A DNA stretch of 33,731 bases from Candidatus Woesearchaeota archaeon (GTDB lineage: Archaea; Nanobdellota; Nanobdellia; Pacearchaeales; GW2011-AR1), in assembly GCA_964632115.1 (NCBI GenBank), contig CAZWEB010000003.1, positions 1 to 33,731 of the forward strand, written 5' to 3'. This document shows positions 5,040 to 30,606 of this stretch, piece after piece. The position numbers were made by a program, and so were the translations under genes. Positions within the stretch are counted from its first letter, which is position 1, and each line of letters begins with the position of its first letter. The notes below the pieces were generated by a model that saw only the letters and a program-made list of their open reading frames with translations, was not told the origin of the DNA and did no database searches.

Positions 5040-5053
5040 AATCCGATTTGAAA

Positions 5054-5782: not shown

Positions 5783-5790
5783 AAATTAAA

Positions 5791-6300: not shown

Positions 6301-6324
6301 ATATCTAACTCCACCTCATAAATC

Positions 6325-6332
6325 TTTAAATA
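6325..6332 (+). promoter_or_regulatory. Candidate archaeal TATA box for the class B radical SAM gene at 6355
   Basis: The sequence is AATCTTTAAATATA. The box is centred 26.5 nt upstream of the ATG. Confidence 0.45.
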
Positions 6333-6354
6333 TATTCTTTTTTATCAAACATCT

Positions 6355-7770: not shown

Positions 7771-7955
7771 AAAATTTAAGTAACTAAATAAAATGCAAGA
7801 ACAAACAAAATGCAAAAACCAACAAAATTAATACAACCCTATATAAACTTGTTAATTAGAAATCTAAAATATTCTAGTTATGGTATTGTTAATTCAAGAG
7901 GATTATCTAAATTAAATATTGAGGGAAGAAATTTGTCATTCTTGCCATTAATATA

Positions 7956-9308: not shown

Positions 9309-9325
9309 ACAGATTTAAAATTAAA

Positions 9326-10696: not shown

Positions 10697-10813
10697 AATA
10701 ATTGCTGGTTTTATCTTTCATGTCTTTGTTAAAATAGTGGGAGACAGCATAATATTTCTTTCTATAAATTACTGCTATCTCCTGAGAATAGGACACTCCC
10801 CTCTTTCATTATC

Positions 10814-10821
10814 TTTAAAAA
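10814..10821 (+). promoter_or_regulatory. Candidate archaeal TATA box for the flippase gene
   Basis: The sequence is ATCTTTAAAAATA. The box is centred 25.5 nt upstream of ATG 10843. Confidence 0.45.
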
Positions 10822-10842
10822 TACATTTTTCTTCTTGATTTT

Positions 10843-12381
10843 ATGATTAAGAAAAATGAAAACCTGACTAAACAGGCAGTTGAAGGAAGTTTCTGGGCGG
10901 GATTTGCTACTTTCTTGAATAGATTTGCCTCTTTATTTTTTAGTATTCTCTTTGCAAGACTTTTACTGCCTGAAAATTTTGGACTTTATAGCTTGACAAT
11001 GTCTATTGCATTTATCTTTATGACTTTTGCTGATTTGGGAATCAATGAAACCCTCATAAGATTTTTTTCATTATACAAGAATAAAGAGAAATCAACAGCA
11101 TATTTCCAATATATCTTTAAAATAAAAATTTTGCTGTCTTTTTTAGTCTCTTTAATTCTTTTTTTAGGCGCTTACCCACTTTCTTTTTTTATTTTTAAAA
11201 AACCAGAATTATTCTATCCCCTAATCGTAGCTTCAATATTCATATTATCCTCGCTATTTGTTTATTTTTTCTCATCGTTTTTTTATGCTATTAAAAAAAC
11301 CAAATATATTGGAATAAATGAAATATTTTTTCAATTAGTAAGAATTATTTTAATCATTTTTGTTTTTATTTTAATTTCCTCTGAATACCATGTTATTGCA
11401 ATAATTATTGCTTCAATTTTAACTAATCTATTTGTTTTATTATTGCTACTCTCTTGGTTGAAAAAACTTGCTCCGGGAATATTTAAAAAATCAAATCAAG
11501 TAATTGACAAAAAATCCCTTCTCAAATTTTTAGGTTATGCTACCATTGCTCAAATTTCTGGAATTTTTTTCAGTTATATTGATACTTTAATGCTTGGATT
11601 TTTTGTATCTTTTAGTTATCTTGGATATTATCGCATAGCTTTTAGCTTGGTTTTTGGAGTAATAGGGCTTTTTACTTATCTTAGCGTGGTTTTAATGCCT
11701 TTTTTTACCCGTTTGGAAAACAAGAGATTAAAAAGAGCCTTTAATAAATCAGTTAGATTTATTCTTATCTTTTCAATCCCTTCTGCATTTGGAATACTCG
11801 CTCTTGGAAGGTATTTCATAAGATTGCTCTATGGATATGAATATCTTCAGGCGCAATATCCATTTTATGTATTATCTTTTTTATTAATTCTCTGGATTCC
11901 AACAACTTTATTAATGACTTTATTTTTCTCGAAAGGAAAAATAAAAGAAATCCTTAAAATTAAAGTTTTTGCCTTAGTTTTAAATGTACTCCTGAATTTT
12001 GTTTTAATCTATTCTTTGATGTCCATTTCAGAGCTATGGGCTGTAGTCGGAGCCTCAATTGCAACACTCTTATCTTGGGTTTTTATATTTGTCAGCATGA
12101 TTATTATTTCAAGAAAAAAATTAAACATATCCTTAGAAAAAATCATTTTTGTAAAACCAATTATCTCAGGAATAATTATGTTTTTATCATTATACTTCTT
12201 AAATAGATTTCTAATTAGGGATATGACTCTTGTTTTAGGAGTATTGGAGATAATAGTCGGAGCATTAATCTATCTGATTTTAATGTATTTGATTAAAGGA
12301 ATTACGAGGGAGGATATGGAAACCCTAAAGAAACTTCCAGTATTTACTAAAATTCAGAGATTTAAAGAACTTAAATCCTAA
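10843..12381 (+). CDS. Wzx/MOP-superfamily oligosaccharide (polysaccharide) flippase
   Basis: The protein has 512 aa and about 12-14 TM helices. The N-terminus is typical of polysaccharide-biosynthesis flippases (GSFWAGFATFLNRFASLFFSILFARLL). It lies in a glycan cluster. Confidence 0.75.
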   Translation: MIKKNENLTKQAVEGSFWAGFATFLNRFASLFFSILFARLLLPENFGLYSLTMSIAFIFMTFADLGINETLIRFFSLYKNKEKSTAYFQYIFKIKILLSFLVSLILFLGAYPLSFFIFKKPELFYPLIVASIFILSSLFVYFFSSFFYAIKKTKYIGINEIFFQLVRIILIIFVFILISSEYHVIAIIIASILTNLFVLLLLLSWLKKLAPGIFKKSNQVIDKKSLLKFLGYATIAQISGIFFSYIDTLMLGFFVSFSYLGYYRIAFSLVFGVIGLFTYLSVVLMPFFTRLENKRLKRAFNKSVRFILIFSIPSAFGILALGRYFIRLLYGYEYLQAQYPFYVLSFLLILWIPTTLLMTLFFSKGKIKEILKIKVFALVLNVLLNFVLIYSLMSISELWAVVGASIATLLSWVFIFVSMIIISRKKLNISLEKIIFVKPIISGIIMFLSLYFLNRFLIRDMTLVLGVLEIIVGALIYLILMYLIKGITREDMETLKKLPVFTKIQRFKELKS

Positions 12382-13807
12382 AAACCCTTTTTATAAACTG
12401 CTTGCGCAAATTATATGCTTTTTTCAAAAATAAGGGGCTCAAAAGAAGAGGAACATGCCTTAATCTTAATGAGAGAAGATTAATTAAAAAGTTGCTTTTA
12501 TTAGTACTAAGTTGAAGAGATTTTATATCTCCATATATTTTTTTAAATTCTTTTTTTGAAATATCTCTTGACAGTAGGATATTTGCATCAAAATCAACTA
12601 AATCTTTTTCCTTTCGGTTGTAGTAGTCCTTATCAATTATCTTATTTTCAATTGCATAATTCCATATTGCTGTCCCTGGAAATGCAATTGTCTGGTAAAC
12701 ACTGAAATTTCTCAATGAGTTGTTTTTAATAAAATCATAAGTCTCTTTCATATCTTTGGCTGTTTCATAAGGAGAACCCACCATGAAAAAACCACCCACA
12801 TCAAATCCATATTTTCTTGCAATATCTAATGCTTTTTTATTATCTTTAACACTTATGATTCCACCCTTGAGATAATTTAAAACTTTCTGGCTTCCTGTTT
12901 CAAATCCAAATGTAATTGAAACAACATTTAATTTTTTTAATAATTGAGCATGTTCTTCATCAAAAACATCTGCCCTGCCGTATACATAGAATTTGATTTT
13001 TCCAAGAAGATTTCTTTGTTTGAGAAGTTTTGTTATTTCCCTGAGCCTCTCTTTATTAATTGGAAATAAATCATCATAAATTATTATGCTTCTGTATTTG
13101 TACTTTTTGTATAGAGTTTCAATTTCATTAGCAACTCTTTTAGCAGAAAAAAATCTTATTCTTCTGCCCCAAAAAGCACTTGAAGAGCAAAACTTGCAGT
13201 TATATGGACACCCTCTGGATGTTATCATAGAACCAGAAGGTTCAAAGCCATCTTTTGAAAGAAAACTTGGAAATCTATAATATTTCATATTTAACAAATC
13301 CCGTGCAGGCATTGGAATTTCATCAAGATTATCTATGCATTCTCCAGAACCAGTGCAAATCGATTCCTTATTCTCTCTGAAGATTATGCCTTTTATTTTT
13401 TTCAACTCTTTTGTTTTTATGCCTTTATTTTGTTTAATGCTCTCCAGAACTCTTGAAAAAGGAATTTCACCCTCTCCAGTTACTGCGATATCAAATACAG
13501 AATCGTTAAATGACTCAGGAGATGTTGTTACATGAACCCCTCCAATAATAAGTGTAGAATCAGGAGAGATTTTTTTTAATTTTTTTGCAATTTCCTTGAC
13601 AATATAGTAATTTGAACTTACTGCTGTCAGCCCAATAACCTCTGGTTTCAGCTCTTTTATTTTTTTTATAGTATCTGAATAGCTTAGTTGGTCAAATATT
13701 CTTACATTCCAGTCTGTTTTTTTCTTGATATAAGCAGCAAGATATGCTAGCCCTATTGGGGGATCAGCATCACTCATATAATCGGGATTAATTAATACTA
13801 AATTCAT
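12371..13807 (-). CDS. Cobalamin-binding (class B) radical SAM enzyme
   Basis: Motifs seen: MNLVLINPDY, IIGGVHVT, VTGEGEIP, SRGCPYNCKFC, FGFETGS. ATG 13807 is preferred over 13861 because it gives a typical N-terminus, avoids overlapping the upstream gene and has a TATA-like box 24.5 nt upstream. Start 13861 remains possible. Confidence 0.85.
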   Translation of the reverse strand: MNLVLINPDYMSDADPPIGLAYLAAYIKKKTDWNVRIFDQLSYSDTIKKIKELKPEVIGLTAVSSNYYIVKEIAKKLKKISPDSTLIIGGVHVTTSPESFNDSVFDIAVTGEGEIPFSRVLESIKQNKGIKTKELKKIKGIIFRENKESICTGSGECIDNLDEIPMPARDLLNMKYYRFPSFLSKDGFEPSGSMITSRGCPYNCKFCSSSAFWGRRIRFFSAKRVANEIETLYKKYKYRSIIIYDDLFPINKERLREITKLLKQRNLLGKIKFYVYGRADVFDEEHAQLLKKLNVVSITFGFETGSQKVLNYLKGGIISVKDNKKALDIARKYGFDVGGFFMVGSPYETAKDMKETYDFIKNNSLRNFSVYQTIAFPGTAIWNYAIENKIIDKDYYNRKEKDLVDFDANILLSRDISKKEFKKIYGDIKSLQLSTNKSNFLINLLSLRLRHVPLLLSPLFLKKAYNLRKQFIKRVFRI

Positions 13808-13827
13808 ATAAGTCTTTAAAATTAGAG

Positions 13828-13835
13828 ATTTATAA
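13828..13835 (-). promoter_or_regulatory. Candidate internal TATA box for the class B radical SAM gene starting at 13807
   Basis: The minus strand reads CCTTATAAATC. The box is centred 24.5 nt upstream of ATG 13807. Confidence 0.35.
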
Positions 13836-13847
13836 GGATTGTTAAGA

Positions 13848-14603
13848 TTAAGTAGATACATTCCCTATCTTATTATAAATAATTAGAAAATTTCTGACAA
13901 AAGCTATGAAACTAACAATTGTCATTAATATAAGATAATATCCAGGAACATTAAAAACAATGGCAAAAAACAGCAATGAAAAAGGATTAGCTGGCCTGAG
14001 CATCTCAATACAATAAGATTTCATTTTTTGAATAAAACTTTTCTTTGAGCTTTTATATCCTTTGATTCTGTATTCACCTGTTACTTGTTTTAATAAATCC
14101 AATCTTTTCTTTTCCTCTAAAGCCTCATAAAGTTTAAGCTTATTTAAATTATCAAAAATCAAAAAAAGACCTGAGACAATTCCCAAATAAAGATATATTA
14201 TGCTTCCTGAAACTCTATAAACCCCAACCCCTAATGCTAAAACTAAAAGTCCGCGGTTAACAGAGGAAAAAAGATTATCGAGATAAGGCCCTCCTAATGT
14301 TGTTTTTCCTGTCGCTCTTGCTATTTCTCCATCAAGATAATCTAGGAAAATAGCAAAATGATAAATTAAAATCCCCAATAATAAATACCAGTAACTTCCA
14401 ATAGTCATAATTAAAATACCAATTAATCCAATAATTCCCCACGCGAAGGTAATCTGGTTTGGAGTAATAAAAGGCAGAAATTTTGTAAAGAAATATGAAA
14501 CATAAGGAGAAACATATCCAAAGATTCTAATATTAACTGGGTGATCGTTCCAGACATCACAGTTTTTCTTTATGTCTTTTAATGTTATCTCTTTTTTCTT
14601 CAT
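13848..14603 (-). CDS. CDP-alcohol phosphatidyltransferase-family transferase (integral membrane)
   Basis: The family signature is DYLDGEIARATGKTTLGGPYLDNLFS, matching DxxDGxxARx8GxxxDxxx. By eye the final Asp is replaced by Ser. The protein is multi-TM. Confidence 0.8.
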   Translation of the reverse strand: MKKKEITLKDIKKNCDVWNDHPVNIRIFGYVSPYVSYFFTKFLPFITPNQITFAWGIIGLIGILIMTIGSYWYLLLGILIYHFAIFLDYLDGEIARATGKTTLGGPYLDNLFSSVNRGLLVLALGVGVYRVSGSIIYLYLGIVSGLFLIFDNLNKLKLYEALEEKKRLDLLKQVTGEYRIKGYKSSKKSFIQKMKSYCIEMLRPANPFSLLFFAIVFNVPGYYLILMTIVSFIAFVRNFLIIYNKIGNVST

Positions 14604-14643: not shown

Positions 14644-16131
14644 TTACATATATTTTTCTTTATATATCTGGCTAAGTTTCTCAAAAACATTGTTTCCTTG
14701 TTTATCAAATTTCTCTGCTTTTTCTATTTCTGTCCACATTTCTTTTGGAAATTTTACATATAATGGGAATGTTCTTTGCAAACCCTTAACTTGTTCTCTG
14801 CTTAATTGAGGCATATCTAAACCAGCATCAGAACGATAATCTCCTGCAATAAAATCTTCAGGTAAATATCCTTTTTCAACACAAAGTTCTCTTAATCTTG
14901 TTCCACGATATGCGCAAAAAATATTTACTATTACATTGTGTGCTTTTAATCTCCTGTTAAGGTTTATAGTATCAAAGACAAGCTCTCTTGTTTCAGTTGG
15001 AAACCCCATGATATTATTTGCACAAACCCTTATTCCAGCCTTTTTTGCTAAGTCAAATGCCTCAGTTACTTTTTCATTAGAGACATAGCGATTAAGAATG
15101 TCTTTTCTAAATTCATCATTTCCATGTTCAACCCCAATACTAATCCCTTCACAGCCAATTTCTTTTATCTTGAGAATTCTTTCTAAATTTACAGTTTCAG
15201 GTCTTGTTTCAATCCAAAAAGGAAGCTTAATATCTTTATATTGTTCAACAAATTTATCAAATCTTTCTCTGTTCATCTGTAGAAAATTCTCAGCAACAAG
15301 ATAGAGATATTGCAAGCCATATTTTTCTTTTTTCTCTTTTAATTCATTTATAAAATTTTCAATGCTCCTTTGCCGAGGGTATTTTCCAATATCTTTATAT
15401 TTTGCTTGCAATTCATCATTACAGCAAAAAGCACAATGAAAAGGGCACCCCCTGTCTAATTCTATTGGTCCACTAATCCATATTTTTCCACCCATTGGTT
15501 TAAAAAAACGCTCTTTTTCGTAAATGCTCCAATCTTGATCAGGAAGTTCATCTAAGTTTACAAGAGGTCTCAATGGATTTTTTATTATTTTCCCACTTTT
15601 TTTAATCCATAAATTTCTAACATCTGAATATTCTTTTCCAGAGCCTATTCTGTCTGCAAGTTCAACAATTGCTTCTTCTCCTTCACCTATGCAAATCATA
15701 TCAAGATTAGGATTTTTAATTATTTCTTTACCAGCCATTGTTGCATGAATGCCTCCAACTATTTTTGGGATTCTTAAATCCTTTATTTCTTTCAATAAAT
15801 CTAAGGTTATATGATATGTTGATTCAACTGCAGAAAAACCAATAATTTCTGGATTAAACTCCCTGATCGCTCTTTTAAAATCTTCTGCCATATTGGTATT
15901 TTTTTTATGTATCCCAAATTTTGAAAGATCAGTTGGTAATACTTGCAATGTTTCAACTCTTGCTTCATCTCCTGTTTTTTCACTTGTTTTATAGAATGTA
16001 GTGTCAAATAATTTTGTTTTATGTCCTGCTTTTTTTAGACAAGCAGAAAGAACCGATACACCAATAGGAATAAGATTATCCATGTAACTATTTATATAAG
16101 TTAGCAATACTTTAGTCATTTTAATAAACAT
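14644..16131 (-). CDS. Cobalamin-binding (class B) radical SAM enzyme (divergent subtype)
   Basis: Motifs seen: KVLLTYIN, IVGGIHAT, CIGEGEEA, DRGCPFHCAFC, IGVEHGN. An alternative ATG at 16119 (MTKVLL) would remove the 11-nt overlap with the upstream NTase gene. Confidence 0.85.
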   Translation of the reverse strand: MFIKMTKVLLTYINSYMDNLIPIGVSVLSACLKKAGHKTKLFDTTFYKTSEKTGDEARVETLQVLPTDLSKFGIHKKNTNMAEDFKRAIREFNPEIIGFSAVESTYHITLDLLKEIKDLRIPKIVGGIHATMAGKEIIKNPNLDMICIGEGEEAIVELADRIGSGKEYSDVRNLWIKKSGKIIKNPLRPLVNLDELPDQDWSIYEKERFFKPMGGKIWISGPIELDRGCPFHCAFCCNDELQAKYKDIGKYPRQRSIENFINELKEKKEKYGLQYLYLVAENFLQMNRERFDKFVEQYKDIKLPFWIETRPETVNLERILKIKEIGCEGISIGVEHGNDEFRKDILNRYVSNEKVTEAFDLAKKAGIRVCANNIMGFPTETRELVFDTINLNRRLKAHNVIVNIFCAYRGTRLRELCVEKGYLPEDFIAGDYRSDAGLDMPQLSREQVKGLQRTFPLYVKFPKEMWTEIEKAEKFDKQGNNVFEKLSQIYKEKYM

Positions 16132-16846
16132 ATCCCATGCTTTTTAAGGTTTTATTTATTCTAGGGATATCTTCTTTTTTATCTAGTTCTGACCAGGCTA
16201 GATTCATTCTGATTAATCCAAACCAAGGAACATTTTTGCTTGTAGAATAAGCGCAATCTTCATAATATTCAGCATTATTCTGTTTTTTAATATTTTTTTC
16301 ATGCAGACAAAACATTTCATCAACAAATCTTTTGGAAAATTTAGATATCCCTGTAAATTCAAAAATTGTTTTGTTGCTAGGAAGAGATTTTCCTAGATAT
16401 CTAACTTTTTTATTTTTATCTAAAACCACATAAACTTCATCTCCCCCACCACAGCATTCTGTTAAAACAACAGCATTTTCTTTATCATGCTTGATTAATT
16501 CAGGAATTATTTGGGAATCATAAACTATATCTCCATCCAAAACAATACAATCCTCTGGTTTCTGCAGTGCCGAATAGAAAGAATGCATGCTTCCAGAAGT
16601 TTCATAGGAATTATTCCATAAATAATTTATTCTTAATTTTTTAAACTTTTTTCCTAATTTCCTTTTTATTTTTTCTCCTCTGAAACCCAAAACTACAGAA
16701 ACCTCACTAAGTTCAGTTTTAGCTAAAGATTCAAGAGAATACTCGATAATACTTTTCCCCCCTATTTCAAATAGAGGTTTTGGTTTTCCATTTAAAACAT
16801 CTTCTAATCTTTTTCCCATTCCAGCTGCAAGAATCACTGCCCTCAT
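16121..16846 (-). CDS. Nucleotidyltransferase (LicC/PntC-like sugar-phosphate or phosphonate cytidylyltransferase)
   Basis: The N-terminal NTP-transferase signature is MRAVILAAGMGKRL. The protein is about 240 aa. It lies immediately downstream of the AEP transaminase gene. ATG 16846 is preferred over TTG 16852. Confidence 0.75.
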   Translation of the reverse strand: MRAVILAAGMGKRLEDVLNGKPKPLFEIGGKSIIEYSLESLAKTELSEVSVVLGFRGEKIKRKLGKKFKKLRINYLWNNSYETSGSMHSFYSALQKPEDCIVLDGDIVYDSQIIPELIKHDKENAVVLTECCGGGDEVYVVLDKNKKVRYLGKSLPSNKTIFEFTGISKFSKRFVDEMFCLHEKNIKKQNNAEYYEDCAYSTSKNVPWFGLIRMNLAWSELDKKEDIPRINKTLKSMGYVY

Positions 16847-16848
16847 TT

Positions 16849-17955
16849 TCAAATAGTTATTAAATCCATTTCCTTGAGAGTTATTTTCATAGATTCTAAA
16901 AAGTTATTAATATCTTTGGAGTCTATTGCTCCTATGTTAGCCAGCCTGAATGTTTTTTCCTGTATTTTTCCAGGATAAATTGTAAATCCTTTTTCTTTTA
17001 ATAAGTTATGTAATTTTTCAAATGAATAATTTGAATGCTCTGGTTCATAAAATGTTGTTAAAAGATGGCTCTGCGGAACTTCTGGTTTATACCGTTTAAA
17101 TCCAAAACTTTCCATTCCATTAACAAGAATCCTCCAGATTTCCCTATACCTTTGGTTCCTTGCCCCTATTCCTCCTTCTTCAAAAAATTCATCAATTGCT
17201 TTTCTTAATGCATAAATTGTCTGAACAGGGGGAGTAAATCTCATCTGATTATGTTCTTTTAAGTAAATATACTGGTTGTATAAATTTAAATAAAAACTCT
17301 TTCCATAATCTTTTGTTTTTTCTAATTCTTCTTTTTTTGCTATAACAAAAGCAACCCCCGGCATTCCTTGTATGCATTTGTTGCTTGTTGAAACCATAAA
17401 ATCAATATTATTTCTTTTAATATCTAATGGTATTCCTGCAAAACTAGATACTGCATCAACAACAAAAACCTTTCTATATTTTTTTGAGATTTTTCCTATC
17501 TCTAAAATAGGATTTAAAATTCCAGTTGTTGTTTCATGATGAATTGCACTTACAACTTCAATTTCAGAATCTTCTCGCAATTTTTTTTCTAGTTTTTTTA
17601 AATCAGGGACATCCCCCCATTCTTCTTTCTGCTCAGAATAAGAAATCCCATAGGTTTTTGCTATATTGACTATTCTCTCCCCATAAGCGCCATTATTAAC
17701 AACTAATAATTTTTTTTGTGTAGGAACAACAGAACTTATCACTGCTTCAATTCCTGCAGTTCCGCTTCCCCCAAATAACACGCAATCATAATTCTCATTT
17801 CCATTTACAATTTTTATTAGGTCTTTGGAAATAGAATCCATCAATTCTCCAAACTCTTTTTCTCTGGGGCATATATCTGGAACTACTTGGGCCATTTTTA
17901 CAGAATCTGTGGTAGTTGCAGGACCCGGATTCAACAAAATTTCCCTTTTTATCAT
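16849..17955 (-). CDS. phnW: 2-aminoethylphosphonate:pyruvate aminotransferase (class V aminotransferase)
   Basis: The N-terminus LLNPGPATTTDSV and the PLP-lysine segment STSNKCIQGMPG are both typical of AEP transaminases. The length is 368 aa. It is divergently paired with phosphonopyruvate decarboxylase. Confidence 0.8.
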   Translation of the reverse strand: MIKREILLNPGPATTTDSVKMAQVVPDICPREKEFGELMDSISKDLIKIVNGNENYDCVLFGGSGTAGIEAVISSVVPTQKKLLVVNNGAYGERIVNIAKTYGISYSEQKEEWGDVPDLKKLEKKLREDSEIEVVSAIHHETTTGILNPILEIGKISKKYRKVFVVDAVSSFAGIPLDIKRNNIDFMVSTSNKCIQGMPGVAFVIAKKEELEKTKDYGKSFYLNLYNQYIYLKEHNQMRFTPPVQTIYALRKAIDEFFEEGGIGARNQRYREIWRILVNGMESFGFKRYKPEVPQSHLLTTFYEPEHSNYSFEKLHNLLKEKGFTIYPGKIQEKTFRLANIGAIDSKDINNFLESMKITLKEMDLITI

Positions 17956-17966
17956 TATTGTACTAG

Positions 17967-17986
17967 ATTATAAAAAAGCTTAAAAA
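17967..17986. promoter_or_regulatory. A/T tract around an AAGCTT palindrome, a candidate shared or bidirectional TATA region for phnW (-) and ppd (+)
   Basis: The sequence is TTATAAAAAAGCTTAAAAAC. CTTAAAAA is centred 25.5 nt from ppd ATG 18008. The same tract read on the minus strand (TTTTTAAG) is centred 27.5 nt from phnW ATG 17955. The whole spacer is only 52 bp. Confidence 0.4.
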
Positions 17987-18007
17987 CATATTGGTGATAT
18001 AAAGCAT

Positions 18008-19123
18008 ATGATTAGATGTGAAGATTTAGCAGACATATTTAAAAAAAATAACTTAACTTTCTTTTCAGGTGTGCCTGACAGCACTTTTAAAGAATGGATG
18101 AAATTTTTAGATGATGGAAATGGCTTGACAAATATACTCGCTGTAAACGAATGTGAAGCCATAGCCATGGTATCAGGATATTATCTTGCAACCAAGAATA
18201 TAGGTGTTGTTTACATGCAAAACTCTGGTCTTGGAAAAACAGTAAATCCATTAACTTCCTTGTGTGATAAAGAGGTTTATTCAATTCCATTAATTCTAAT
18301 GATTGGATTAAGAGGAGAGCCCGGAGAAAAAGATGAGCCGCAACACAAGAAAATGGGCAGGATAACTCTTCCCCTTTTAGATGTTTTGGAAATTCCTTAT
18401 GCAATTTTGCCAAATACTCTTGAAGAAATCTCAAAAGTGATAACTGAGATGAAAAGAGCATCTGTAGAAAAAAACTCTCCTGTGGCAATTATAATAAAAA
18501 AAGGATTATTAGAAGAATACACTTCTAAAAAAACAACAAAAACATATTATGAGATGTCAAGAGAAGACGCTATTAAAACCATAACTAATAATATTCAAAA
18601 TAATGGGGTTATAATTTCAACAACAGGAAAAGCGTCAAGAGAATTATTTGAGTATAGGATACAAAGAAAAGAAAAACCAAAAGATTTTTATACTGTAGGG
18701 GGTATGGGTTGTTCTGCTTCAATTGCAAATGCAATAGCTATGCAAAAACCAAACCTTCCAGTATGGGTTTTTGATGGTGATGGGGCTGTTTTGATGCAGA
18801 TGGGAACATTAGCAACAATTGGAAAATATCGAACAGAAAATCTTTATCATATAGTTTTTGACAATAATTCCTATGATTCAACAGGAGGGCAACCCACAGC
18901 CTCTTCAACAGTTAATTTTGAAAAAATAGCATTAGCCTGCGGCTATAAAACCGCCAGAACAATTCAAAAAAAATCAGATTTAGAAGAGTATCTTAATATT
19001 ATGAAATCGCAAAAAGGCCCGCAGATGCTAATAATAAAAATAAAAAGAGGCGCAAGAAAGGATTTAGGAAGGCCAACCACAACCCCCATAGAAAATAAAA
19101 TTGAGTTTATGGATAATTTATAA
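18008..19123 (+). CDS. ppd: Phosphonopyruvate decarboxylase (ThDP-dependent)
   Basis: The characteristic N-terminus is NNLTFFSGVPDSTFKEW. The ThDP motif is GDGAVLMQMG...(26 aa)...NNSYDSTGGQ. The length of about 370 aa is typical of Ppd rather than the longer acetolactate-synthase-type enzymes. Confidence 0.85.
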   Translation: MIRCEDLADIFKKNNLTFFSGVPDSTFKEWMKFLDDGNGLTNILAVNECEAIAMVSGYYLATKNIGVVYMQNSGLGKTVNPLTSLCDKEVYSIPLILMIGLRGEPGEKDEPQHKKMGRITLPLLDVLEIPYAILPNTLEEISKVITEMKRASVEKNSPVAIIIKKGLLEEYTSKKTTKTYYEMSREDAIKTITNNIQNNGVIISTTGKASRELFEYRIQRKEKPKDFYTVGGMGCSASIANAIAMQKPNLPVWVFDGDGAVLMQMGTLATIGKYRTENLYHIVFDNNSYDSTGGQPTASSTVNFEKIALACGYKTARTIQKKSDLEEYLNIMKSQKGPQMLIIKIKRGARKDLGRPTTTPIENKIEFMDNL

Positions 19124-19139
19124 GGAGATTAAATAAAAA

Positions 19140-20621
19140 ATGAACCCCAAAAAATTCAAAAAAATTATGCTTGTAAATCCTGCAAATACCATGCCCAAGG
19201 ATAGTGTAAGAAGACTAACATCTCCATTGGGTTTAATGTATCTCGGGGCTGTTTTAAAACAAGACAATTATGATGTAAAAATTCTTGATTCTACTTGTGA
19301 GGGTTATTATAACACCCAGATTTCAGGAGAGCATATAACCTACGGGCTGTCAGATGATGAATTTAAAAAAAGAGTAAGAGAATATGAACCTGATCTTGTA
19401 GGGATAACCTCTATGTTTTCTGCTCAGCAGAAAAATTCAATACATCATTGTGATTTAGTAAAATCAGTTAATCCAGAAATTCCAATTGTTCTTGGAGGAA
19501 TACATCCTTCTATTTTAACAGAAGAATCTACAAAAAATTCTTCTGTTGATTTTGTAATCATCGGAGAAGGTGAATATAGAATTATAAAACTTCTAGACGC
19601 CCTAAACAAAAATCAAAAACCAGACTTTGATGGAATTGCTTATAAAAACAAGGACAAGATTATTCTAAATCCAATGATTTCAAGAATAGATAATTTAGAT
19701 TCATTGCCTTTGCCTGCCCGGGATTTAGTAGAGATGGAAAAATACATTCAAATAAGTGTTCCTTTTAGCCCGTTTCCAAGAAAAGAACGAGTTGAACAAA
19801 TTATGACAACAAGAGGTTGTCCGTTTAACTGCAATTTTTGTTCAACAGTCCAATACTGGGGGCATCATTTTAGAGCAAGATCTGTGGAAAACGTCTTAAA
19901 AGAGGTTGATGAATTAGTAAGCAAATACAAGATACAAGAGATACAATTTTCAGATGATAATCTAACTGTTAATAAAAAAAGAGCAAAAGATCTTTTTAGA
20001 AGACTCAAAGATTATAATCTCTCTTGGTGCACTCCAAATGGATTAATGGTTCAAACTCTTGATGAAGAAATGATAAAGTTAATGGCAGAATCAGGAGCAT
20101 ATCAATTCAGTTTTGCAATAGAATCTGGGAGTGATAGGGTTAGAGAAAAAATAATTAATAAAAAGGTTCCTCCAAAAAAAGACGTTAAAGAATTAGTTGA
20201 ATTGTGCCATGATTATAATATTCAGATCCATGGATTGTTTATAGTAGGATTTCCAGGAGAAAAGCGTCCAGAAATAGATGAAACATTGCAATATCCATTT
20301 GATGTTAATCTTGACAGTGCATCTTTTTTTATTGCAAATCCCATGCTGGGCTCAAGGCTTTATTTTGAATGCAAGGAAAAAGGATATATACATGAAGAAG
20401 AAATGACATGGAATGTTAAAAATGCTGAAATCAACATCCCTGCAGACTCTCCAGATTTTGTGATGCCTAATTCAGAACTAGAAGAATTAGTTAATCAAAA
20501 AGCAAGAGAATTTAATGAATATGCTAAAACTAAAAATCCGGGAGCATGGGATACTAAATTCAGCCAATTCCTCAAAAGGCATGGAGATAATGCAGATTTA
20601 ATCTTGGGAAGAGTGACCTAA
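19140..20621 (+). CDS. Cobalamin-binding (class B) radical SAM enzyme, Fom3-like (candidate phosphonate C-methyltransferase)
   Basis: Class B motifs are VLGGIHPS, IIGEGEYR and TRGCPFNCNFC. Other segments match my recollection of Fom3: KIMLVNPA, PLGLMYLGAVLKQDNYDVKILD, EGYYN, YGLSDDE, LMAESGAYQFSFAIESGS, SASFFIANP. An SD-like AGGAG lies at 19123-19127. Confidence 0.8.
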   Translation: MNPKKFKKIMLVNPANTMPKDSVRRLTSPLGLMYLGAVLKQDNYDVKILDSTCEGYYNTQISGEHITYGLSDDEFKKRVREYEPDLVGITSMFSAQQKNSIHHCDLVKSVNPEIPIVLGGIHPSILTEESTKNSSVDFVIIGEGEYRIIKLLDALNKNQKPDFDGIAYKNKDKIILNPMISRIDNLDSLPLPARDLVEMEKYIQISVPFSPFPRKERVEQIMTTRGCPFNCNFCSTVQYWGHHFRARSVENVLKEVDELVSKYKIQEIQFSDDNLTVNKKRAKDLFRRLKDYNLSWCTPNGLMVQTLDEEMIKLMAESGAYQFSFAIESGSDRVREKIINKKVPPKKDVKELVELCHDYNIQIHGLFIVGFPGEKRPEIDETLQYPFDVNLDSASFFIANPMLGSRLYFECKEKGYIHEEEMTWNVKNAEINIPADSPDFVMPNSELEELVNQKAREFNEYAKTKNPGAWDTKFSQFLKRHGDNADLILGRVT

Positions 20622-22348
20622 AGATTACCAAGAATATCCCTTACAAAGTTTAAGTCTTTTATATTGTGGATTTCCAGCCAGCCGCCGTTTGTTTCATGTA
20701 CTGCTACTTTGAAATCTCTGTTAACTAGTTCCTGAAACATATCTGTATCAACTGCTTTTCCAAAACTTTCTGCCCCGTGGAATTTCCCAGTATGATTTGA
20801 TTTTAAGTCTTCATATACTTTGATTAGATTTTCAGCACCTTGTTTTGAAAATTTTGCCAAGCCAATGAACTCATGAGTCATTAATTCTTTTGGGATGCTT
20901 CTGCCAATTAAAACAACTTCATCATTAGAAGGCCTTAATCTTTGATATTGGATTTGTTTTCCTTTTTTTGTTATAACTCCATCAAGTTTCTTATCTATCT
21001 CATGTTTATGATAAAGATAAGAATTATCAACAACAATTACAATATCTTCTTTTCTTTCAAGAAGCTCATTTATCAATCTTTTGTCCAAAAGAATATCTGA
21101 ATTAATATAAATAAATCCTTTTTTCATTTTTTCTTTAGCCTGCATAAGACTATGAATCATCCCCAAAGAAGAGTATTCTGGATTATCAAAATAATTAATA
21201 TCTGAAATATTAAATTTTTCTTTCTGCCACCCAATTATGGCATTGATATTATTCAATCCCAGGTCTTTGAATATCTGAATTTGATGTTCAAGTAATGTTC
21301 TCCCATTTATATTAATTAAAGCTCTTGGAATATTTCCCATTGCTTGTTTGAATTCCTCATTTTCTTCTCCAGCAGCAGGAATAATCACAGAAGGAGTTTT
21401 TGAAAGCAATTCATCTTTTTCTTTTATATCTAAGAAGCCAACTTTATTAAAAATTTCTTTTACAGAAATAATATGTGGCTCTGCTTCTAATGCTCTTTCA
21501 TTCTCAAGAATTATGCTTCCAACATTATGCATTGCTTTGTATGCTGCGCGCAGCATATGATTTGCATAGATTACAATATTAAATCCATGTTCTTCTAATT
21601 CAGACTCTCTTACTGAACTATATGTTGTTGGTACGCATACTAAAGGTTTTCTTATGCCTATCTCTTTGCATAATTGAGAATATTCTTTTGCAAATTTAAT
21701 CACTTCTTCAGGGCTAGTAGACTTTGAATGAATCATTATTCCATCTGCGCCACTTTCCAAGTATTTTCTTGCGCGCAGCAAGGCATCATTAATCTCTTTT
21801 CCTGCAATTAAACTTTCTATCCTTGCTATAATCATAAAATCATCAGATCTTTGTATTTTCTTTCCTGCTTCAATTTTTTCAGCAAAACGCTCTGGTTCTT
21901 CTAAATGCTGAATTGTTCCTGATTCAAGGCTATTTCTTTTTGGAAATACCTTATCTTCTATTATAACTGCAGAAACACCCATTCTTTCTAATTTTGGAAC
22001 TAAATATTCAAAATGATGTATGTCTCCTCCTGTATCACCATCAATAATCAATGGCTTGTTAGTAACTTCTAAAATTTCAGATACTGTTCTTAATCTAGAA
22101 TCAAACCCAATAATCTCTATATCTGGATGTCCTTTTGAAGCAGAATCAGTTAAACTGCTTTCCCAGAAAAAATCAAATTCATTGATTTTTTTAATTCCAT
22201 TGTTATCTATCTCTGCACTTAAATCATTTGCAATCAAGGCGCTTATTGCACTATGAACTTCTATTCCCCTTACCAGTTTTTTAATCTCCAACGCTCTTTT
22301 GAGTTTTTTTCGCCTCTCTTCAGGAGATATTAAATATCTCAATGTCAT
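20618..22348 (-). CDS. pepM: Phosphoenolpyruvate mutase fused to a C-terminal nucleotidyltransferase domain
   Basis: The N-terminal half has isocitrate-lyase/PEP-mutase superfamily motifs (DGDTGG) and the PepM-discriminating signature IIEDKVFPKRNS (EDKxxxxxNS). The C-terminal half has an NTP-transferase start (VIIPAAGE...PRALININGRTLLEHQI). ATG 22348 is preferred over TTG 22360 because a TATA-like box is centred 25.5 nt upstream of it. Confidence 0.75.
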   Translation of the reverse strand: MTLRYLISPEERRKKLKRALEIKKLVRGIEVHSAISALIANDLSAEIDNNGIKKINEFDFFWESSLTDSASKGHPDIEIIGFDSRLRTVSEILEVTNKPLIIDGDTGGDIHHFEYLVPKLERMGVSAVIIEDKVFPKRNSLESGTIQHLEEPERFAEKIEAGKKIQRSDDFMIIARIESLIAGKEINDALLRARKYLESGADGIMIHSKSTSPEEVIKFAKEYSQLCKEIGIRKPLVCVPTTYSSVRESELEEHGFNIVIYANHMLRAAYKAMHNVGSIILENERALEAEPHIISVKEIFNKVGFLDIKEKDELLSKTPSVIIPAAGEENEEFKQAMGNIPRALININGRTLLEHQIQIFKDLGLNNINAIIGWQKEKFNISDINYFDNPEYSSLGMIHSLMQAKEKMKKGFIYINSDILLDKRLINELLERKEDIVIVVDNSYLYHKHEIDKKLDGVITKKGKQIQYQRLRPSNDEVVLIGRSIPKELMTHEFIGLAKFSKQGAENLIKVYEDLKSNHTGKFHGAESFGKAVDTDMFQELVNRDFKVAVHETNGGWLEIHNIKDLNFVRDILGNL

Positions 22349-22488: not shown

Positions 22489-24003
22489 ATGAAGATAAAA
22501 TCCATGAAATCCTCTGATTTAAGAGATATAAGGAAAATTTCTAATGATAAAAGAAAAAAAGTTCTGCTGATTAATTGCAGAAGAAAAGGATATCTTCCAG
22601 CCCTGATGCCCCACATAGGACTTGGAATCTTGGCGGGAATTTTAATAAGAAGAGGGCACGAAGTCCTGGTTATTGATTATCTGCTTACTAATAATGTTCC
22701 CCCTATTGAAATGTTTTTAAAAAAATTTAATCCGGATGTAGTTGGAATTACTTCATATACTTGGAATATATTTGAAGTAAAAAAAACAATTGATGAGATA
22801 AGAAATTTTTCATCCTCTTTGCCAGTGATTATAGGCGGTCCACACACATCTATGTTTACAGATGATTTCAAACAAGACAAAAGAATTGATTATCTTGTTT
22901 TAGGAGATGGAGAACTGCTTATAATTGATTTGATTGAAAAAGCTAAAAGACAAAAAAAACCAGAAATACTATTCTCTAAAGAACTTGCAAAACTAGATGA
23001 TATTCCTTTTCCAAATTACCAGTGTTTTTACAAATGGGAAACAGTTCTTAGTTATCCCCTTTATACCTCCAGAGGGTGCCCACATAATTGCAATTATTGT
23101 TCTGTTTGGATCTTATGCAACAGGGTCTGGAGAACAAGAAGTTCTGAAAAATGCATAGAAGAACTTAGGCTTGCAAAAAAAATTTTCAAAAAAGACCTGC
23201 ATGTTTTTGTCGTAGATGACAGTCCGGCAATAGACAAAAAAAGATTTGCTGATTTTCTAAGATTATATATTAAAAGCAGATTAAGAATGAGACTCGAAGT
23301 CTATAATATGAGGGCTGATAATATTACAGAAGAAATACTCTCTTTGCTTAAAAAAACAGGCACTAAACATTTTACGGTGGCAGTAGAACACACAGATCCA
23401 GAAGTCTGTCAGTTGATGGACAAGCATGAAACTATTGAACAAATTGAAAATGCAATAAACCTGGTTAAAAAACAGGGATTTTTACTGACTCTTTTTTTTG
23501 TTATTGGTTTGCCAAAAGACAGTTTTGAAAAAACAAAAAAATTAATTAAATTTGCCAGAAAATTCAAGCCTTATGCTATCAATTGGAATATTTTTCAGTA
23601 TCTTGGCCCAAATAGGGCTGTAGAATGGTTCAAGGAGAATGGGAAAGTCGACGCAATTAATTACTCTCAGCCCTCTTTTAAAAAAGAAATTTTTTATCCA
23701 GAAGGAAAGCCTTTTGCAGAATATTCTGGCTTTACAAAACATGAGATAGAAAAAGCATATTTTATGGCAATCTTGAGGACAATATCTCCAAGTCTTAGGC
23801 TCAGAGATGCAGTAAGAATATTCAAAACAATCTCAAAATATAATCTCCAGGCAGATTTTTTTTATTGGCTTCCGAGAGGATTTTTAAAATCCCTAAGGAC
23901 CAAGTTTTATCTTTTTCAGTCTGCAGTAAATACTGTAAGAAAAGAAGGTATTATTAAAACTTTAAGAAAAATTATATACCTAAAGAAATTAGGAAGACTT
24001 TGA
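22489..24003 (+). CDS. Cobalamin-binding (class B) radical SAM enzyme
   Basis: Motifs seen: KVLLINCR, IIGGPHTS, VLGDGELL, SRGCPHNCNYC, VAVEHTD. Confidence 0.8.
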   Translation: MKIKSMKSSDLRDIRKISNDKRKKVLLINCRRKGYLPALMPHIGLGILAGILIRRGHEVLVIDYLLTNNVPPIEMFLKKFNPDVVGITSYTWNIFEVKKTIDEIRNFSSSLPVIIGGPHTSMFTDDFKQDKRIDYLVLGDGELLIIDLIEKAKRQKKPEILFSKELAKLDDIPFPNYQCFYKWETVLSYPLYTSRGCPHNCNYCSVWILCNRVWRTRSSEKCIEELRLAKKIFKKDLHVFVVDDSPAIDKKRFADFLRLYIKSRLRMRLEVYNMRADNITEEILSLLKKTGTKHFTVAVEHTDPEVCQLMDKHETIEQIENAINLVKKQGFLLTLFFVIGLPKDSFEKTKKLIKFARKFKPYAINWNIFQYLGPNRAVEWFKENGKVDAINYSQPSFKKEIFYPEGKPFAEYSGFTKHEIEKAYFMAILRTISPSLRLRDAVRIFKTISKYNLQADFFYWLPRGFLKSLRTKFYLFQSAVNTVRKEGIIKTLRKIIYLKKLGRL

Positions 24004-27366: not shown

Positions 27367-27378
27367 TTAGTAATCTGA

Positions 27379-28254: not shown

Positions 28255-28327
28255 AACTATTATATTTTGGAGACTAATAATACTTTTAAATGAAAATTAC
28301 ATTAGCTAAATGCACAAATAAATAAAA

Positions 28328-30605: not shown

Positions 30606-30606
30606 A

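What the first reader, a model, noticed from the sequence alone, without database searches (positions are those of the whole stretch)
16849..22348. Complete C-P bond-forming core (PepM, Ppd, AEP transaminase) in a probable DPANN-like archaeal island
Seen in sequence:
- The 20618-22348 product carries IIEDKVFPKRNS, the EDKxxxxxNS signature that separates true PEP mutases from other isocitrate-lyase-superfamily members.
- The 18008-19123 product has the Ppd-type N-terminus (FFSGVPDS) and a GDG-x26-NN ThDP motif.
- The 16849-17955 product has the AEP-transaminase N-terminus (LLNPGPATTT) and a SNKCIQG PLP-lysine segment.

Established knowledge: PepM -> Ppd -> AEP transaminase is the canonical route to 2-aminoethylphosphonate.

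Inference: this organism makes an AEP-type phosphonate. As far as I know, the one characterised archaeal phosphonate pathway is the methylphosphonate route of marine Thaumarchaeota. No MpnS/HEPD/HppE-type cupin oxygenase and no iron alcohol dehydrogenase is present here, so the product should differ.
Basis: partly seen in the sequence, partly recalled or inferred. Interest (0 to 1): 0.8.

Follow-up and report, generated by a model that had tools for sequence, protein, structure and literature searches.

The report
Archaeal aminoethylphosphonate pathway with B12 methylases
A small uncultivated DPANN archaeon carries a real gene set for making the carbon-phosphorus compound 2-aminoethylphosphonate, and the set sits among activating, probably methylating and membrane-transfer enzymes, so the likely end product is a modified phosphonate attached to the cell envelope rather than free AEP.

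Summary
The products of 20618-22348(-), 18008-19123(+) and 16849-17955(-) each score above NCBIfam's curated cut-offs for PEP mutase, phosphonopyruvate decarboxylase and AEP aminotransferase. Every quoted motif is present. SecD and PepM relatives place the contig in DPANN (Nanoarchaeota, Woesearchaeota, Pacearchaeota).

- PepM is fused to a nucleotidyltransferase-like domain.
- A cobalamin-type radical SAM gene (19140-20621) lies between Ppd and PepM.
- The AEPT operon continues with a PntC-like cytidylyltransferase, a second conserved B12 radical SAM enzyme, a variant CDP-alcohol phosphotransferase and a third B12 radical SAM enzyme.

Orthologues of the 19140 enzyme lie next to phosphonate genes in archaea and four bacterial phyla. 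Three separate database proteins fuse such an orthologue to the PntC-like transferase. In other DPANN genomes a 42-44% identical relative sits in a Fom1/Fom2/FomC/Fom3-like gene set.

Best reading: PEP to AEP, then CMP-AEP, then Fom3-like C-methylation, then transfer to an envelope lipid or glycan. The AEP core is solid. Methylation and transfer are inferred.

The AEP core with PntC is a known kind. The B12 radical SAM version is an uncharacterised variant. Interest is moderate.

The parts
20618..22348 (-). PepM fused at its C-terminus to a nucleotidyltransferase-like domain. The PepM domain is about 21446-22303, with the EDKxxxxxNS motif at 21929-21958. The NT-like domain is about 20621-21388.
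   Evidence: TIGR02320 349.3 bits, above cut-off 319.55. Pfam PEP_mutase 171.6 bits and NTP_transf_3 31.1 bits. Catalytic residues are conserved against 1m1b. The NT-like domain matches LicC 1jyk best (40 bits) but lacks the GxG(T/S)R arginine. That arginine is missing across all 117 aligned homologues.
18008..19123 (+). Phosphonopyruvate decarboxylase (Ppd), a single polypeptide. The ThDP motif GDG-x26-NN is at 18776-18868.
   Evidence: TIGR03297 451.2 bits, above cut-off 312.5. Sulfopyruvate decarboxylase models score below their cut-offs. The best PDB matches are the alpha and beta subunits of the putative phosphonopyruvate decarboxylase 9iz3.
16849..17955 (-). AEP aminotransferase of the AepZ/PhnW type. 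The PLP-lysine segment SNKCIQG is at 17365-17385. It is the first gene of a minus-strand operon.
   Evidence: TIGR03301 443.1 bits, above cut-off 360.8. The best PDB match is the AEPT domain of T. denticola Tde1415 (344 bits), followed by PhnW 1m32 (290 bits).
19140..20621 (+). Cobalamin-type (class B) radical SAM enzyme, 16 bp downstream of Ppd. It is the proposed Fom3-like methylase of the nucleotide-activated phosphonate.
   Evidence: Pfam B12-binding 72.5 bits and Radical_SAM 90 bits. CxxxCxxC at aa 227-234. The best NCBIfam hit is the Sden_1168 family at 352 bits (cut-off 575), and the next is HpnJ at 173 bits. The AF2 model has pLDDT 89.4, and its top folds are MgmA, TsrM, AprD4, TokK, CysS and OxsB. 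Orthologues are linked to phosphonate genes and are fused to an NT domain.
16121..16852 (-). Stand-alone PntC-like cytidylyltransferase. It overlaps the AEPT stop codon by 4 bp.
   Evidence: The best PDB match is the PntC domain of Tde1415 (6pd1), 82.6 bits over the full length. Tde residues R15, K25, K153 and E196 are conserved. E104 is replaced by Asp, as in LicC. This is the domain type fused to orthologues of the 19140 enzyme.
14644..16131 (-). Second conserved class B radical SAM enzyme. It overlaps the NT gene by 11 bp.
   Evidence: Pfam B12-binding and Radical_SAM. CxxxCxxC at aa 229-236. Orthologues at 59-69% identity lie next to relatives of the 19140 enzyme in L004 (Nanoarchaeota), L010 (Omnitrophota) and L014 (Nanoarchaeota).
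13848..14603 (-). Variant CDP-alcohol phosphotransferase family membrane protein. It is the proposed transferase that moves the phosphonyl group from the CMP conjugate to an envelope alcohol.
   Evidence: PF01066 39.2 bits, above cut-off 22. The motif D88xxD91G92xxA95R96...G105xxxD109 is present, but the fourth Asp is Ser. The same loss occurs in 13 of 14 such proteins next to these radical SAM genes. Orthologues are in L001/L004 (53%), L083, L018, L082 and L007.
12371..13861 (-). Third class B radical SAM enzyme and last gene of the AEPT operon, overlapping the transferase gene by 14 bp. Its role is unassigned.
   Evidence: Pfam B12-binding and Radical_SAM. No close orthologue was found in the related phosphonate loci.
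22489..24003 (+). Fourth neighbouring class B radical SAM enzyme, divergently transcribed from PepM. Its link to the phosphonate pathway is uncertain.
   Evidence: Pfam B12-binding and Radical_SAM. It is only 22-29% identical to the other five.
10843..12381 (+). Wzx/MurJ-type flippase. Together with GT2 (5048-5782), PMT_2 (3240-5039) and GT9 (25211-26155) it forms the envelope-glycan context.
   Evidence: Pfam Polysacc_synt 95.8 bits, PMT_2, Glycos_transf_2 and Glyco_transf_9. The same context is seen in L001, L018 and L021.

Best explanation
This is the phosphonate branch of a cell-envelope biosynthesis locus in a DPANN archaeon.

Shown by sequence: PepM converts PEP to phosphonopyruvate, Ppd pulls the reaction forward to phosphonoacetaldehyde, and the AepZ-type aminotransferase makes 2-aminoethylphosphonate (AEP).

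Inferred, strongly: the stand-alone PntC-like transferase (16121-16852) couples AEP to CTP to give CMP-AEP.

Inferred, moderately: the cobalamin radical SAM enzyme 19140-20621 methylates the aminoethyl carbon chain while it is CMP-bound, as Fom3 does with CMP-2-hydroxyethylphosphonate. The second conserved enzyme, 14644-16131, may do the same. The product would be a 2-aminopropyl-type phosphonate.

Inferred, weakly: the variant CDP-alcohol phosphotransferase (13848-14603) moves the aminoalkylphosphonyl group from CMP onto a membrane lipid or lipid-linked glycan. The neighbouring flippase and glycosyltransferases then handle that carrier.
For: - Core enzymes score above curated cut-offs and keep their catalytic residues.
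- The NT matches the crystallised AEP cytidylyltransferase Tde1415 over its whole length, with R15, K25, K153 and E196 conserved. The AEPT matches the other Tde1415 domain best, and the two genes overlap.
- Operon structure: AEPT, NT, a radical SAM gene, the CDP-OH transferase and another radical SAM gene overlap or nearly abut on the minus strand. Ppd and the 19140 gene are 16 bp apart on the plus strand.
- Conserved synteny: the Nanoarchaeota single-cell genome AM-311-I10 has PepM-NT, AEPT, Ppd, NT, the 19140 orthologue (62%), the 14644 orthologue (69%) and the CDP-OH transferase (53%), in the same secDF-ydjM setting.
- Gene linkage: there are 12 distinct loci whose radical SAM protein scores 450 bits or more against the 19140 enzyme. 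Of these, 11 carry an NT gene and 8 carry PepM, Ppd or AEPT. They include Planctomycetia, Magnetococcales, Omnitrophota and Riflebacteria. Two of the other four are contigs under 7 kb.
- An unbootstrapped NJ tree puts every PepM-linked enzyme in one half (16 of 33) and none in the other half (0 of 48).
- Gene fusions: three separate database proteins (P0147, P0157, P0191) fuse the PntC-like NT to a 57-60% identical orthologue of the 19140 enzyme.
- Fosfomycin parallel: in DPANN loci L014, L018, L021 and L022 a 42-44% identical relative sits beside a CyTase-PepM fusion (Fom1 architecture), Ppd (Fom2) and an Fe-ADH (FomC). A stand-alone CyTase gene is present in three of the four and a CDP-OH transferase in two.
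- The predicted fold is that of class B radical SAM enzymes.
- PntC and Fom1/Fom3 chemistry come from PMC6697681 and PMC9204698.
Against: - No enzyme here has been assayed.
- The 19140 enzyme falls below the Sden_1168 cut-off (352 against 575 bits). It could not be compared with a real Fom3 sequence.
- Class B radical SAM enzymes also catalyse reactions other than methylation. Top fold matches include AprD4 and OxsB.
- Orthologous loci L083 and L012 have no PepM within 10 kb, and L007 has AEPT but no PepM or Ppd. The NT, radical SAM and transferase trio may therefore also act on non-phosphonate head groups.
- The CDP-OH transferase lacks the fourth signature Asp.
- The PepM-fused NT-like domain lacks the P-loop arginine, so its role is unclear.
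- Close relatives carry B12 and SPASM radical SAM genes in the same secDF locus without PepM. Not all six B12 enzymes here need act on the phosphonate.
Confidence: 0.5

Rival explanations
1. Plain AEP decoration. The core and PntC make CMP-AEP, which is transferred unmodified to a glycan or lipid. The B12 radical SAM enzymes modify sugars or lipids of the same envelope polymer, not the phosphonate.
For: - AEP tailoring without radical SAM enzymes is the common known pattern (PMC6697681, PMC8942020).
- secDF loci of close relatives hold B12 and SPASM radical SAM genes without PepM.
- Four of the six B12 enzymes here have no phosphonate-linked orthologues.
Against: - NT-radical SAM fusions exist.
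- Orthologues of the 19140 enzyme are tightly and cross-phylum linked to PepM, AEPT and NT.
- Sibling DPANN clusters have a Fom1/2/C/3-like gene set.
Confidence: 0.27
2. P-methylation. The 19140 enzyme, like PhpK or SD_1168 in vitro, forms a second C-P bond and gives an aminoethyl(methyl)phosphinate.
For: The best family hit is the Sden_1168 'P-methyltransferase' model at 352 bits. SD_1168 methylated a phosphinate surrogate in vitro, but its physiological substrate is unknown (PMC9204698).
Against: - P-methylation needs an H-phosphinate. From established knowledge of phosphinothricin biosynthesis, that arises through phosphonoformate and CPEP mutase.
- No CPEP mutase or PhpF/G/H-like set is in the window.
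- The score is below the family cut-off.
- A 2026 review lists SD1168 among Csp3 methylases (PMC12931638).
Confidence: 0.05
3. The trio of NT, radical SAM enzyme and CDP-OH transferase is a generic head-group module. It would act, for example, on phosphoethanolamine-like phosphates and be only loosely co-located with the AEP core.
For: L083 and L012 have the module without PepM within 10 kb. L007 has it with a transketolase and a transaldolase-like gene instead of PepM and Ppd.
Against: - In 8 of 12 orthologous loci a phosphonate-specific gene is adjacent.
- Only 10 kb of flank was visible, so PepM may lie further away in the exceptions.
- L007 still carries an AEPT that is 62% identical to the window's.
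Confidence: 0.13
4. Catabolic or misassigned genes. The aminotransferase would be a degradative PhnW, or PepM and Ppd would really be methylisocitrate lyase and sulfopyruvate decarboxylase homologues.
For: The degradative PhnW model TIGR02326 also scores 387.5 bits, below its cut-off of 400.8.
Against: - No PhnX, PhnA or PhnY was found.
- PepM and Ppd exceed their own cut-offs, and the rival families fall far below theirs.
- The EDKxxxxxNS motif and the catalytic residues are present.
Confidence: 0.02

Closest known systems
PntC-type phosphonyl tailoring pathway: Ppm, Ppd, AEPT and an AEP cytidylyltransferase (T. denticola Tde1415, A. rimae Ari1348; Rice et al. 2019, PMC6697681). Also the 'Burkholderiales_CDP-OH' cluster group (Li & Horsman 2022, PMC8942020).
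   Same: - The same three core enzymes.
- Ppm fused to a PF12804 domain, the commonest Ppm architecture.
- A second, stand-alone PntC-like transferase with the Tde1415 catalytic residues.
- A CDP-alcohol phosphotransferase family gene and a glycan or lipid context.
   Different: - The host is a DPANN archaeon.
- Cobalamin radical SAM enzymes take the place of the alpha-ketoglutarate oxygenase of the Burkholderia group.
- The transferase lacks the fourth signature Asp.
- The Ppm-fused NT-like domain lacks the P-loop arginine. The PntCs characterised in that paper were a monomeric protein (Ari1348) and an AEPT fusion (Tde1415), and that paper does not report an assay of a Ppm-fused domain.
Early fosfomycin pathway of Streptomyces: Fom1 (CyTase-PepM), Fom2 (Ppd), FomC (Fe-ADH) and Fom3 (B12 radical SAM C-methylase acting on CMP-HEP). 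Described in PMC6697681, PMC9204698 and PMC8158854.
   Same: - PepM is fused to a nucleotidyltransferase.
- Ppd and a class B radical SAM enzyme are adjacent.
- The phosphonate is nucleotide-activated.
- Sibling DPANN loci (L014, L018, L021, L022) reproduce the full Fom1/2/C/3 gene set.
   Different: - Here an aminotransferase replaces FomC, so the substrate would be CMP-AEP rather than CMP-HEP.
- The fused domain is PF12804 at the C-terminus, not PF01467 at the N-terminus.
- No Fom4/HppE epoxidase or FomD hydrolase is present.
- The pathway ends in a membrane transferase, so it looks like envelope decoration rather than an antibiotic.
- Direct sequence comparison with Fom3 was not possible.
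SD_1168 of Shewanella denitrificans OS217 (NCBIfam NF038361)
   Same: It is the best-scoring curated family for the 19140 enzyme, at 352 bits across nearly the whole model. It is a class B radical SAM enzyme.
   Different: The score is below the 575-bit equivalog cut-off. SD_1168 was shown only to methylate a surrogate phosphinate in vitro, and its physiological substrate is unknown (PMC9204698).
Methylphosphonate pathway of Nitrosopumilus maritimus: PepM, Ppd, an alcohol dehydrogenase and MpnS
   Same: It is an archaeal PepM and Ppd start, with proposed attachment to a surface polymer (as described in PMC9381506).
   Different: There is no alcohol dehydrogenase and no MpnS here. The amine branch is used instead.

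Membership tests
PEP mutase (isocitrate lyase/PEP mutase superfamily) | EDKxxxxxNS motif that separates Ppm from other superfamily members | tested here: met
   EDKVFPKRNS at aa 131-140.
PEP mutase (isocitrate lyase/PEP mutase superfamily) | Score above the curated equivalog cut-off and above the sister families | tested here: met
   TIGR02320 349.3 bits, above 319.55. Hydrolase 155.9, PrpB 103.8, CPEP mutase 46.1.
PEP mutase (isocitrate lyase/PEP mutase superfamily) | Catalytic residues of Mytilus PepM (D58, D85, D87, E114, K120, N122, S123, R159, H190) | tested here: met
   All are conserved in the alignment to 1m1b.
PEP mutase (isocitrate lyase/PEP mutase superfamily) | PEP to phosphonopyruvate mutase activity | not testable with these tools
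   Needs an enzyme assay or 31P NMR.
Phosphonopyruvate decarboxylase | Curated equivalog score, ThDP motif, and distinction from sulfopyruvate decarboxylase | tested here: met
   TIGR03297 451.2 bits, above 312.5. ComE-like 132 (below 221.5) and ComD-like 87.9 (below 147.95). GDG-x26-NN found.
AEP aminotransferase (AepZ/PhnW) | Curated equivalog score and PLP lysine | tested here: met
   TIGR03301 443.1 bits, above 360.8. SNKCIQG found. Best PDB matches are the Tde1415 AEPT domain and PhnW.
PntC (AEP cytidylyltransferase), stand-alone 16121-16852 | GxGxR...PK signature and Tde-PntC residues R15, K25, K153, E104 and E196 | tested here: inconclusive
   R15, K25, K155 (equivalent to K153) and E198 (equivalent to E196) are conserved. 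E104 is Asp106, as in LicC. The match is full-length at 82.6 bits. Substrate preference was not tested.
PntC, the PepM-fused domain 20621-21388 | GxG(T/S)R P-loop arginine and the PK lysine | tested here: not met
   The sequence is AAGEENEE...IPR. The arginine is absent in all 117 homologues. The lysine is Arg here and Lys in 92 of 117.
Class B (cobalamin) radical SAM enzyme | N-terminal B12-binding Rossmann domain, CxxxCxxC motif, and the class B fold | tested here: met
   PF02310 72.5 bits and PF04055 90 bits. CPFNCNFC found. The AF2 model matches MgmA, TsrM, TokK, CysS and OxsB.
Sden_1168 family (NF038361) | Score at or above the equivalog cut-off of 575 bits | tested here: not met
   352.2 bits. 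It is a related but separate clade.
Fom3-like methylase of CMP-activated phosphonates | Genomic partnership with a phosphonate cytidylyltransferase, PepM and Ppd | tested here: met
   Adjacency, NT fusions and Fom-like sibling clusters.
Fom3-like methylase of CMP-activated phosphonates | Methyl transfer to C2 of the CMP-bound phosphonate | not testable with these tools
   Needs an in-vitro assay. No Fom3 sequence was obtainable for direct comparison.
Fosfomycin biosynthetic cluster | FomC (Fe-ADH), Fom4/HppE epoxidase and FomD | tested here: not met
   No Fe-ADH or cupin hit in the window.
CDP-alcohol phosphotransferase | Signature D1xxD2G1xxAR...G2xxxD3xxxD4 | tested here: not met
   Seven of eight signature residues are present and D4 is Ser. 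D4 is missing in 13 of 14 cluster-linked homologues. PF01066 is above its cut-off at 39.2 bits. It belongs to the family by profile but is a variant by motif.
Methylphosphonate pathway | MpnS and a phosphonoacetaldehyde reductase | tested here: not met
   No such Pfam or NCBIfam hits.

The most novel reading that the evidence does not exclude
DPANN archaea, and a scattered set of uncultivated anaerobes (Omnitrophota, Planctomycetia, Magnetococcales, Riflebacteria, Asgard archaea), use Fom3-type cobalamin radical SAM chemistry on CMP-AEP. Sibling clusters would use it on CMP-HEP. The products would be C-methylated aminoalkyl- or hydroxyalkyl-phosphonate head groups not yet described, installed on envelope lipids or glycans by a CDP-alcohol transferase subfamily that lacks the fourth Asp. 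On this reading the early fosfomycin pathway is an offshoot of a widespread cell-surface tailoring pathway.
Probability: 0.4. Interest if true: 0.7.

Novelty: new variant of a known kind. Interest (0 to 1): 0.55.

Why it matters
AEP biosynthesis with CMP activation is the commonest known use of PepM, so the core alone adds only a new host lineage. DPANN archaea were not mentioned in the phosphonate surveys read here.

The added value is the conserved partnership of a PntC-like transferase with a distinct clade of cobalamin radical SAM enzymes. If the prediction holds, three things follow:
- It gives a testable substrate (CMP-AEP) for an uncharacterised branch of class B radical SAM enzymes.
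- It predicts new methylated phosphonate head groups in anoxic environments.
- It links fosfomycin's unusual CMP-dependent methylation to an older envelope-decoration pathway.

It would also mean that a genome-reduced symbiont invests in a phosphatase-resistant, B12-dependent surface modification.

Tried and rejected
- Exact look-up of the PepM product on public contigs found nothing for either start codon. Cluster look-ups gave no names.
- tRNA and Rfam scans of the window were empty.
- The bacterial promoter and terminator scan found fewer sites than chance and is not applicable to archaea.
- A real Fom3 or SD_1168 sequence or description could not be obtained. PMC4362910 and PMC6103835 are not held, and two supplements lacked the sequence.
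- A literature search for natural 2-aminopropylphosphonate or C-methylated AEP found only synthetic or NMR-probe uses. Searches for DPANN phosphonate biosynthesis and for CMP-AEP with radical SAM found no report.
- Compositional island: rejected, since GC is uniform.
- Sulfopyruvate decarboxylase, methylisocitrate lyase and CPEP mutase identities: rejected on scores.
- Catabolic PhnW reading: rejected, since no PhnX or PhnA is present and PepM and Ppd are.
- P-methylation: considered unlikely, since no route to an H-phosphinate is present.

Full report
**Observation**

The window is a 33.7 kb contig with about 30% GC throughout and 29 substantial ORFs.

- The 20618-22348(-) product scores 349.3 bits on the PEP mutase equivalog TIGR02320 (cut-off 319.55). 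Phosphonopyruvate hydrolase (155.9), methylisocitrate lyase (103.8) and CPEP mutase (46.1) all fall far below their own cut-offs.
- The product carries EDKVFPKRNS. It keeps every catalytic residue of Mytilus PepM in the alignment to 1m1b.
- The 18008-19123(+) product scores 451.2 bits on the Ppd equivalog (cut-off 312.5). It scores below cut-off on both sulfopyruvate decarboxylase subunits.
- The 16849-17955(-) product scores 443.1 bits on the PhnW-AepZ equivalog (cut-off 360.8). Its best solved relative is the AEPT domain of T. denticola Tde1415, followed by PhnW.
- No Fe-ADH, MpnS, HEPD or HppE-type gene is present.

**Taxonomy and setting**

- Every named SecD relative is Pacearchaeota, Woesearchaeota, Nanoarchaeota or an unclassified 'archaeon', at 64-68% identity. 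Unnamed relatives reach 94%.
- The closest named PepM relatives are Nanoarchaeota.
- Related contigs carry archaeal RNA polymerase and ribosomal genes.
- The phosphonate genes lie in a glycan and envelope locus just downstream of secD-ydjM. The same anchor is seen in a Nanoarchaeota single-cell genome and in a Woesearchaeota MAG.
- Relatives with 76-78% identical SecD carry different sugar genes there and have no PepM within 10 kb.
- The region is therefore a variable envelope locus, not a compositional island.

1. PepM is a fusion. Residues of about 321-576 are an NTP_transf_3 domain. PF12804 is the commonest domain fused to Ppm (PMC6697681). This domain lacks the GxG(T/S)R arginine, both here and in all 117 aligned homologues, and its PK lysine is Arg here. 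Its activity is therefore uncertain.
3. The AEPT gene heads an operon of overlapping genes:
   - a stand-alone nucleotidyltransferase (16121-16852);
   - a second class B radical SAM gene (14644-16131);
   - a CDP-alcohol phosphotransferase family gene (13848-14603);
   - a third class B radical SAM gene (12371-13861).

The stand-alone transferase aligns end to end with the crystallised AEP cytidylyltransferase domain of Tde1415. R15, K25, K153 and E196 are conserved, and E104 is replaced by Asp.

**Is the radical SAM enzyme part of the phosphonate pathway?**

Five lines of evidence say yes for the 19140 enzyme.

1. Its best curated family by a wide margin is the Sden_1168 family of phosphonate-cluster radical SAM enzymes (352 bits, against 173 for the next family). 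The score is below the 575-bit cut-off. The other five B12 enzymes in the window score only 69-130 bits on that model.
2. I scanned one genome per species with a family alignment and scored the neighbours.
   - There are 12 distinct loci whose enzyme scores 450 bits or more against the 19140 enzyme.
   - Of these, 11 carry an NT gene and 8 carry PepM, Ppd or AEPT.
   - They include Planctomycetia, Magnetococcales, Omnitrophota and Riflebacteria.
   - Two of the remaining four are contigs under 7 kb.
   - Among 69 more distant relatives, only 9 have PepM nearby.
   - An unbootstrapped neighbour-joining tree places all PepM-linked enzymes in one half (16 of 33) and none in the other half (0 of 48).
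3. Three independent database proteins fuse a PntC-like domain to a 57-60% identical orthologue of the 19140 enzyme. That domain is 32-36% identical to the window's stand-alone NT.
4. In four other DPANN loci a 42-44% identical relative sits beside a cytidylyltransferase-PepM fusion, Ppd and an Fe-alcohol dehydrogenase.
   - A stand-alone cytidylyltransferase gene is present in three of the four loci. A CDP-alcohol transferase scoring above 80 bits is present in two of them, L018 and L021.
   - This is the Fom1/Fom2/FomC/Fom3 gene set of early fosfomycin biosynthesis.
   - In that pathway Fom3 methylates CMP-2-hydroxyethylphosphonate (PMC6697681, PMC9204698).
   - The window is the amino version: AEPT replaces the dehydrogenase.
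5. The predicted structure (pLDDT 89.4) has the class B fold. Its best matches are the methylases MgmA, TsrM, TokK and CysS, and also AprD4 and OxsB.

The second enzyme (14644-16131) has 59-69% identical orthologues next to relatives of the 19140 enzyme in three loci from two phyla.

**Proposed mechanism**

- Shown by sequence: PEP to phosphonopyruvate to phosphonoacetaldehyde to AEP.
- Inferred: AEP plus CTP gives CMP-AEP, through the PntC-like enzyme.
- Inferred: radical, methylcobalamin-dependent C-methylation of the CMP-bound aminoethyl chain, through the 19140 enzyme and perhaps the 14644 enzyme.
- Inferred: transfer of the phosphonyl group to a membrane alcohol by the CDP-alcohol transferase. 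The Wzx-type flippase, the GT2, GT9 and PMT_2 enzymes nearby would then handle the carrier.

**Caveats**

- The transferase lacks the fourth Asp of the family signature, as do 13 of 14 cluster-linked homologues. From my own knowledge, that residue is thought to be the catalytic base.
- Orthologous loci L083 and L012 show no PepM within 10 kb. L007 pairs AEPT, NT, the radical SAM enzyme and the transferase with a transketolase and a transaldolase-like gene instead of PepM and Ppd.
- Class B enzymes are not all methylases.
- No authentic Fom3 sequence could be obtained for direct comparison.
- P-methylation is unlikely because no route to an H-phosphinate is encoded.

**Comparison with the known, and novelty**

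The AEP core with CMP activation and a CDP-alcohol transferase matches the PntC tailoring logic and the 'Burkholderiales_CDP-OH' cluster group (PMC6697681, PMC8942020). That part is a new member of a known kind, in a lineage not mentioned in the phosphonate surveys read here.

The conserved PntC and B12 radical SAM partnership, in its AEP-type form, was not found in the searchable literature. Reviews list SD1168's physiological substrate as unknown (PMC9204698). I therefore rate the whole as a new variant of a known kind, with moderate interest.

Noticed in passing
window 6355-33030: Ten of 29 genes are radical SAM enzymes. Six are cobalamin-type and only 22-32% identical to each other. Three are SPASM-type, and one is small. 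This is a heavy investment for a genome-reduced, presumably B12-auxotrophic archaeon.
   Followed up: partly
window 26203-32072: Three SPASM radical SAM paralogues (28-38% identical) all end in H-[LVD]-N-F-I. They are interleaved with an RmlD-like reductase, a split transketolase (29404-30132 and 30129-30605) and a Nudix hydrolase. Riflebacteria locus L007 has a SPASM radical SAM gene, a transaldolase-like gene and a full transketolase inside its NT, AEPT, radical SAM and CDP-OH cluster. This hints at a functional link.
   Followed up: partly
window 20621-21388, and 117 homologues: The nucleotidyltransferase-like domain fused to PepM lacks the P-loop arginine across the whole homologue set (AAG-[EKR][DN][PK]...). 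It may not be a conventional cytidylyltransferase.
   Followed up: partly
window 13848-14603; L001, L006, L007, L008, L018, L021, L082, L083 and others: CDP-alcohol phosphotransferase homologues next to these radical SAM genes form a subfamily without the fourth signature Asp. The position holds H, S, A, G or I in 13 of 14 cases.
   Followed up: partly
protein P0194 (metagenomic orthologue of 19140-20621): An intein with an HNH endonuclease is inserted inside the CxxxC|xxC iron-sulfur motif of an orthologue.
   Followed up: no
L012 8031-10007: In an unclassified archaeon, a nucleotidyltransferase is fused to a cofactor-independent phosphoglycerate-mutase-like (PhosphMutase/Metalloenzyme) domain. 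It lies directly upstream of a 45% identical relative of the 19140 enzyme, with phosphodiesterase and sulfatase family genes and no PepM within 10 kb.
   Followed up: no
L002 and L003 (PepM 69% identical to the window's): The cluster has PepM-NT, a 184-aa unknown protein, an Asp/Glu-racemase-like protein, AEPT, NT, a phosphodiesterase and a sulfatase. It has no recognisable Ppd.
   Followed up: no
window 5048-12381, and L018 2273-8293: A module of GT2, a small methyltransferase, a B12 radical SAM enzyme, an FAD oxidoreductase (UDP-galactopyranose mutase/amine oxidase-like) and Wzx is conserved beside a HEP-type phosphonate cluster in another Nanoarchaeota MAG. Identities are 59, 52, 75, 56 and 37%.
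   Followed up: no
L082 (archaeal, GCA_040961665.1): This is a hybrid cluster. It holds a CyTase-PepM fusion, a second CyTase, Ppd, an aldehyde dehydrogenase, two NT genes, LicD, a CDP-OH transferase, AEPT and a 67% identical orthologue of the 19140 enzyme.
   Followed up: no
L021 17406-19397: A 663-aa fusion of a GT2 glycosyltransferase with a radical SAM domain lies in the Woesearchaeota HEP-type locus.
   Followed up: no
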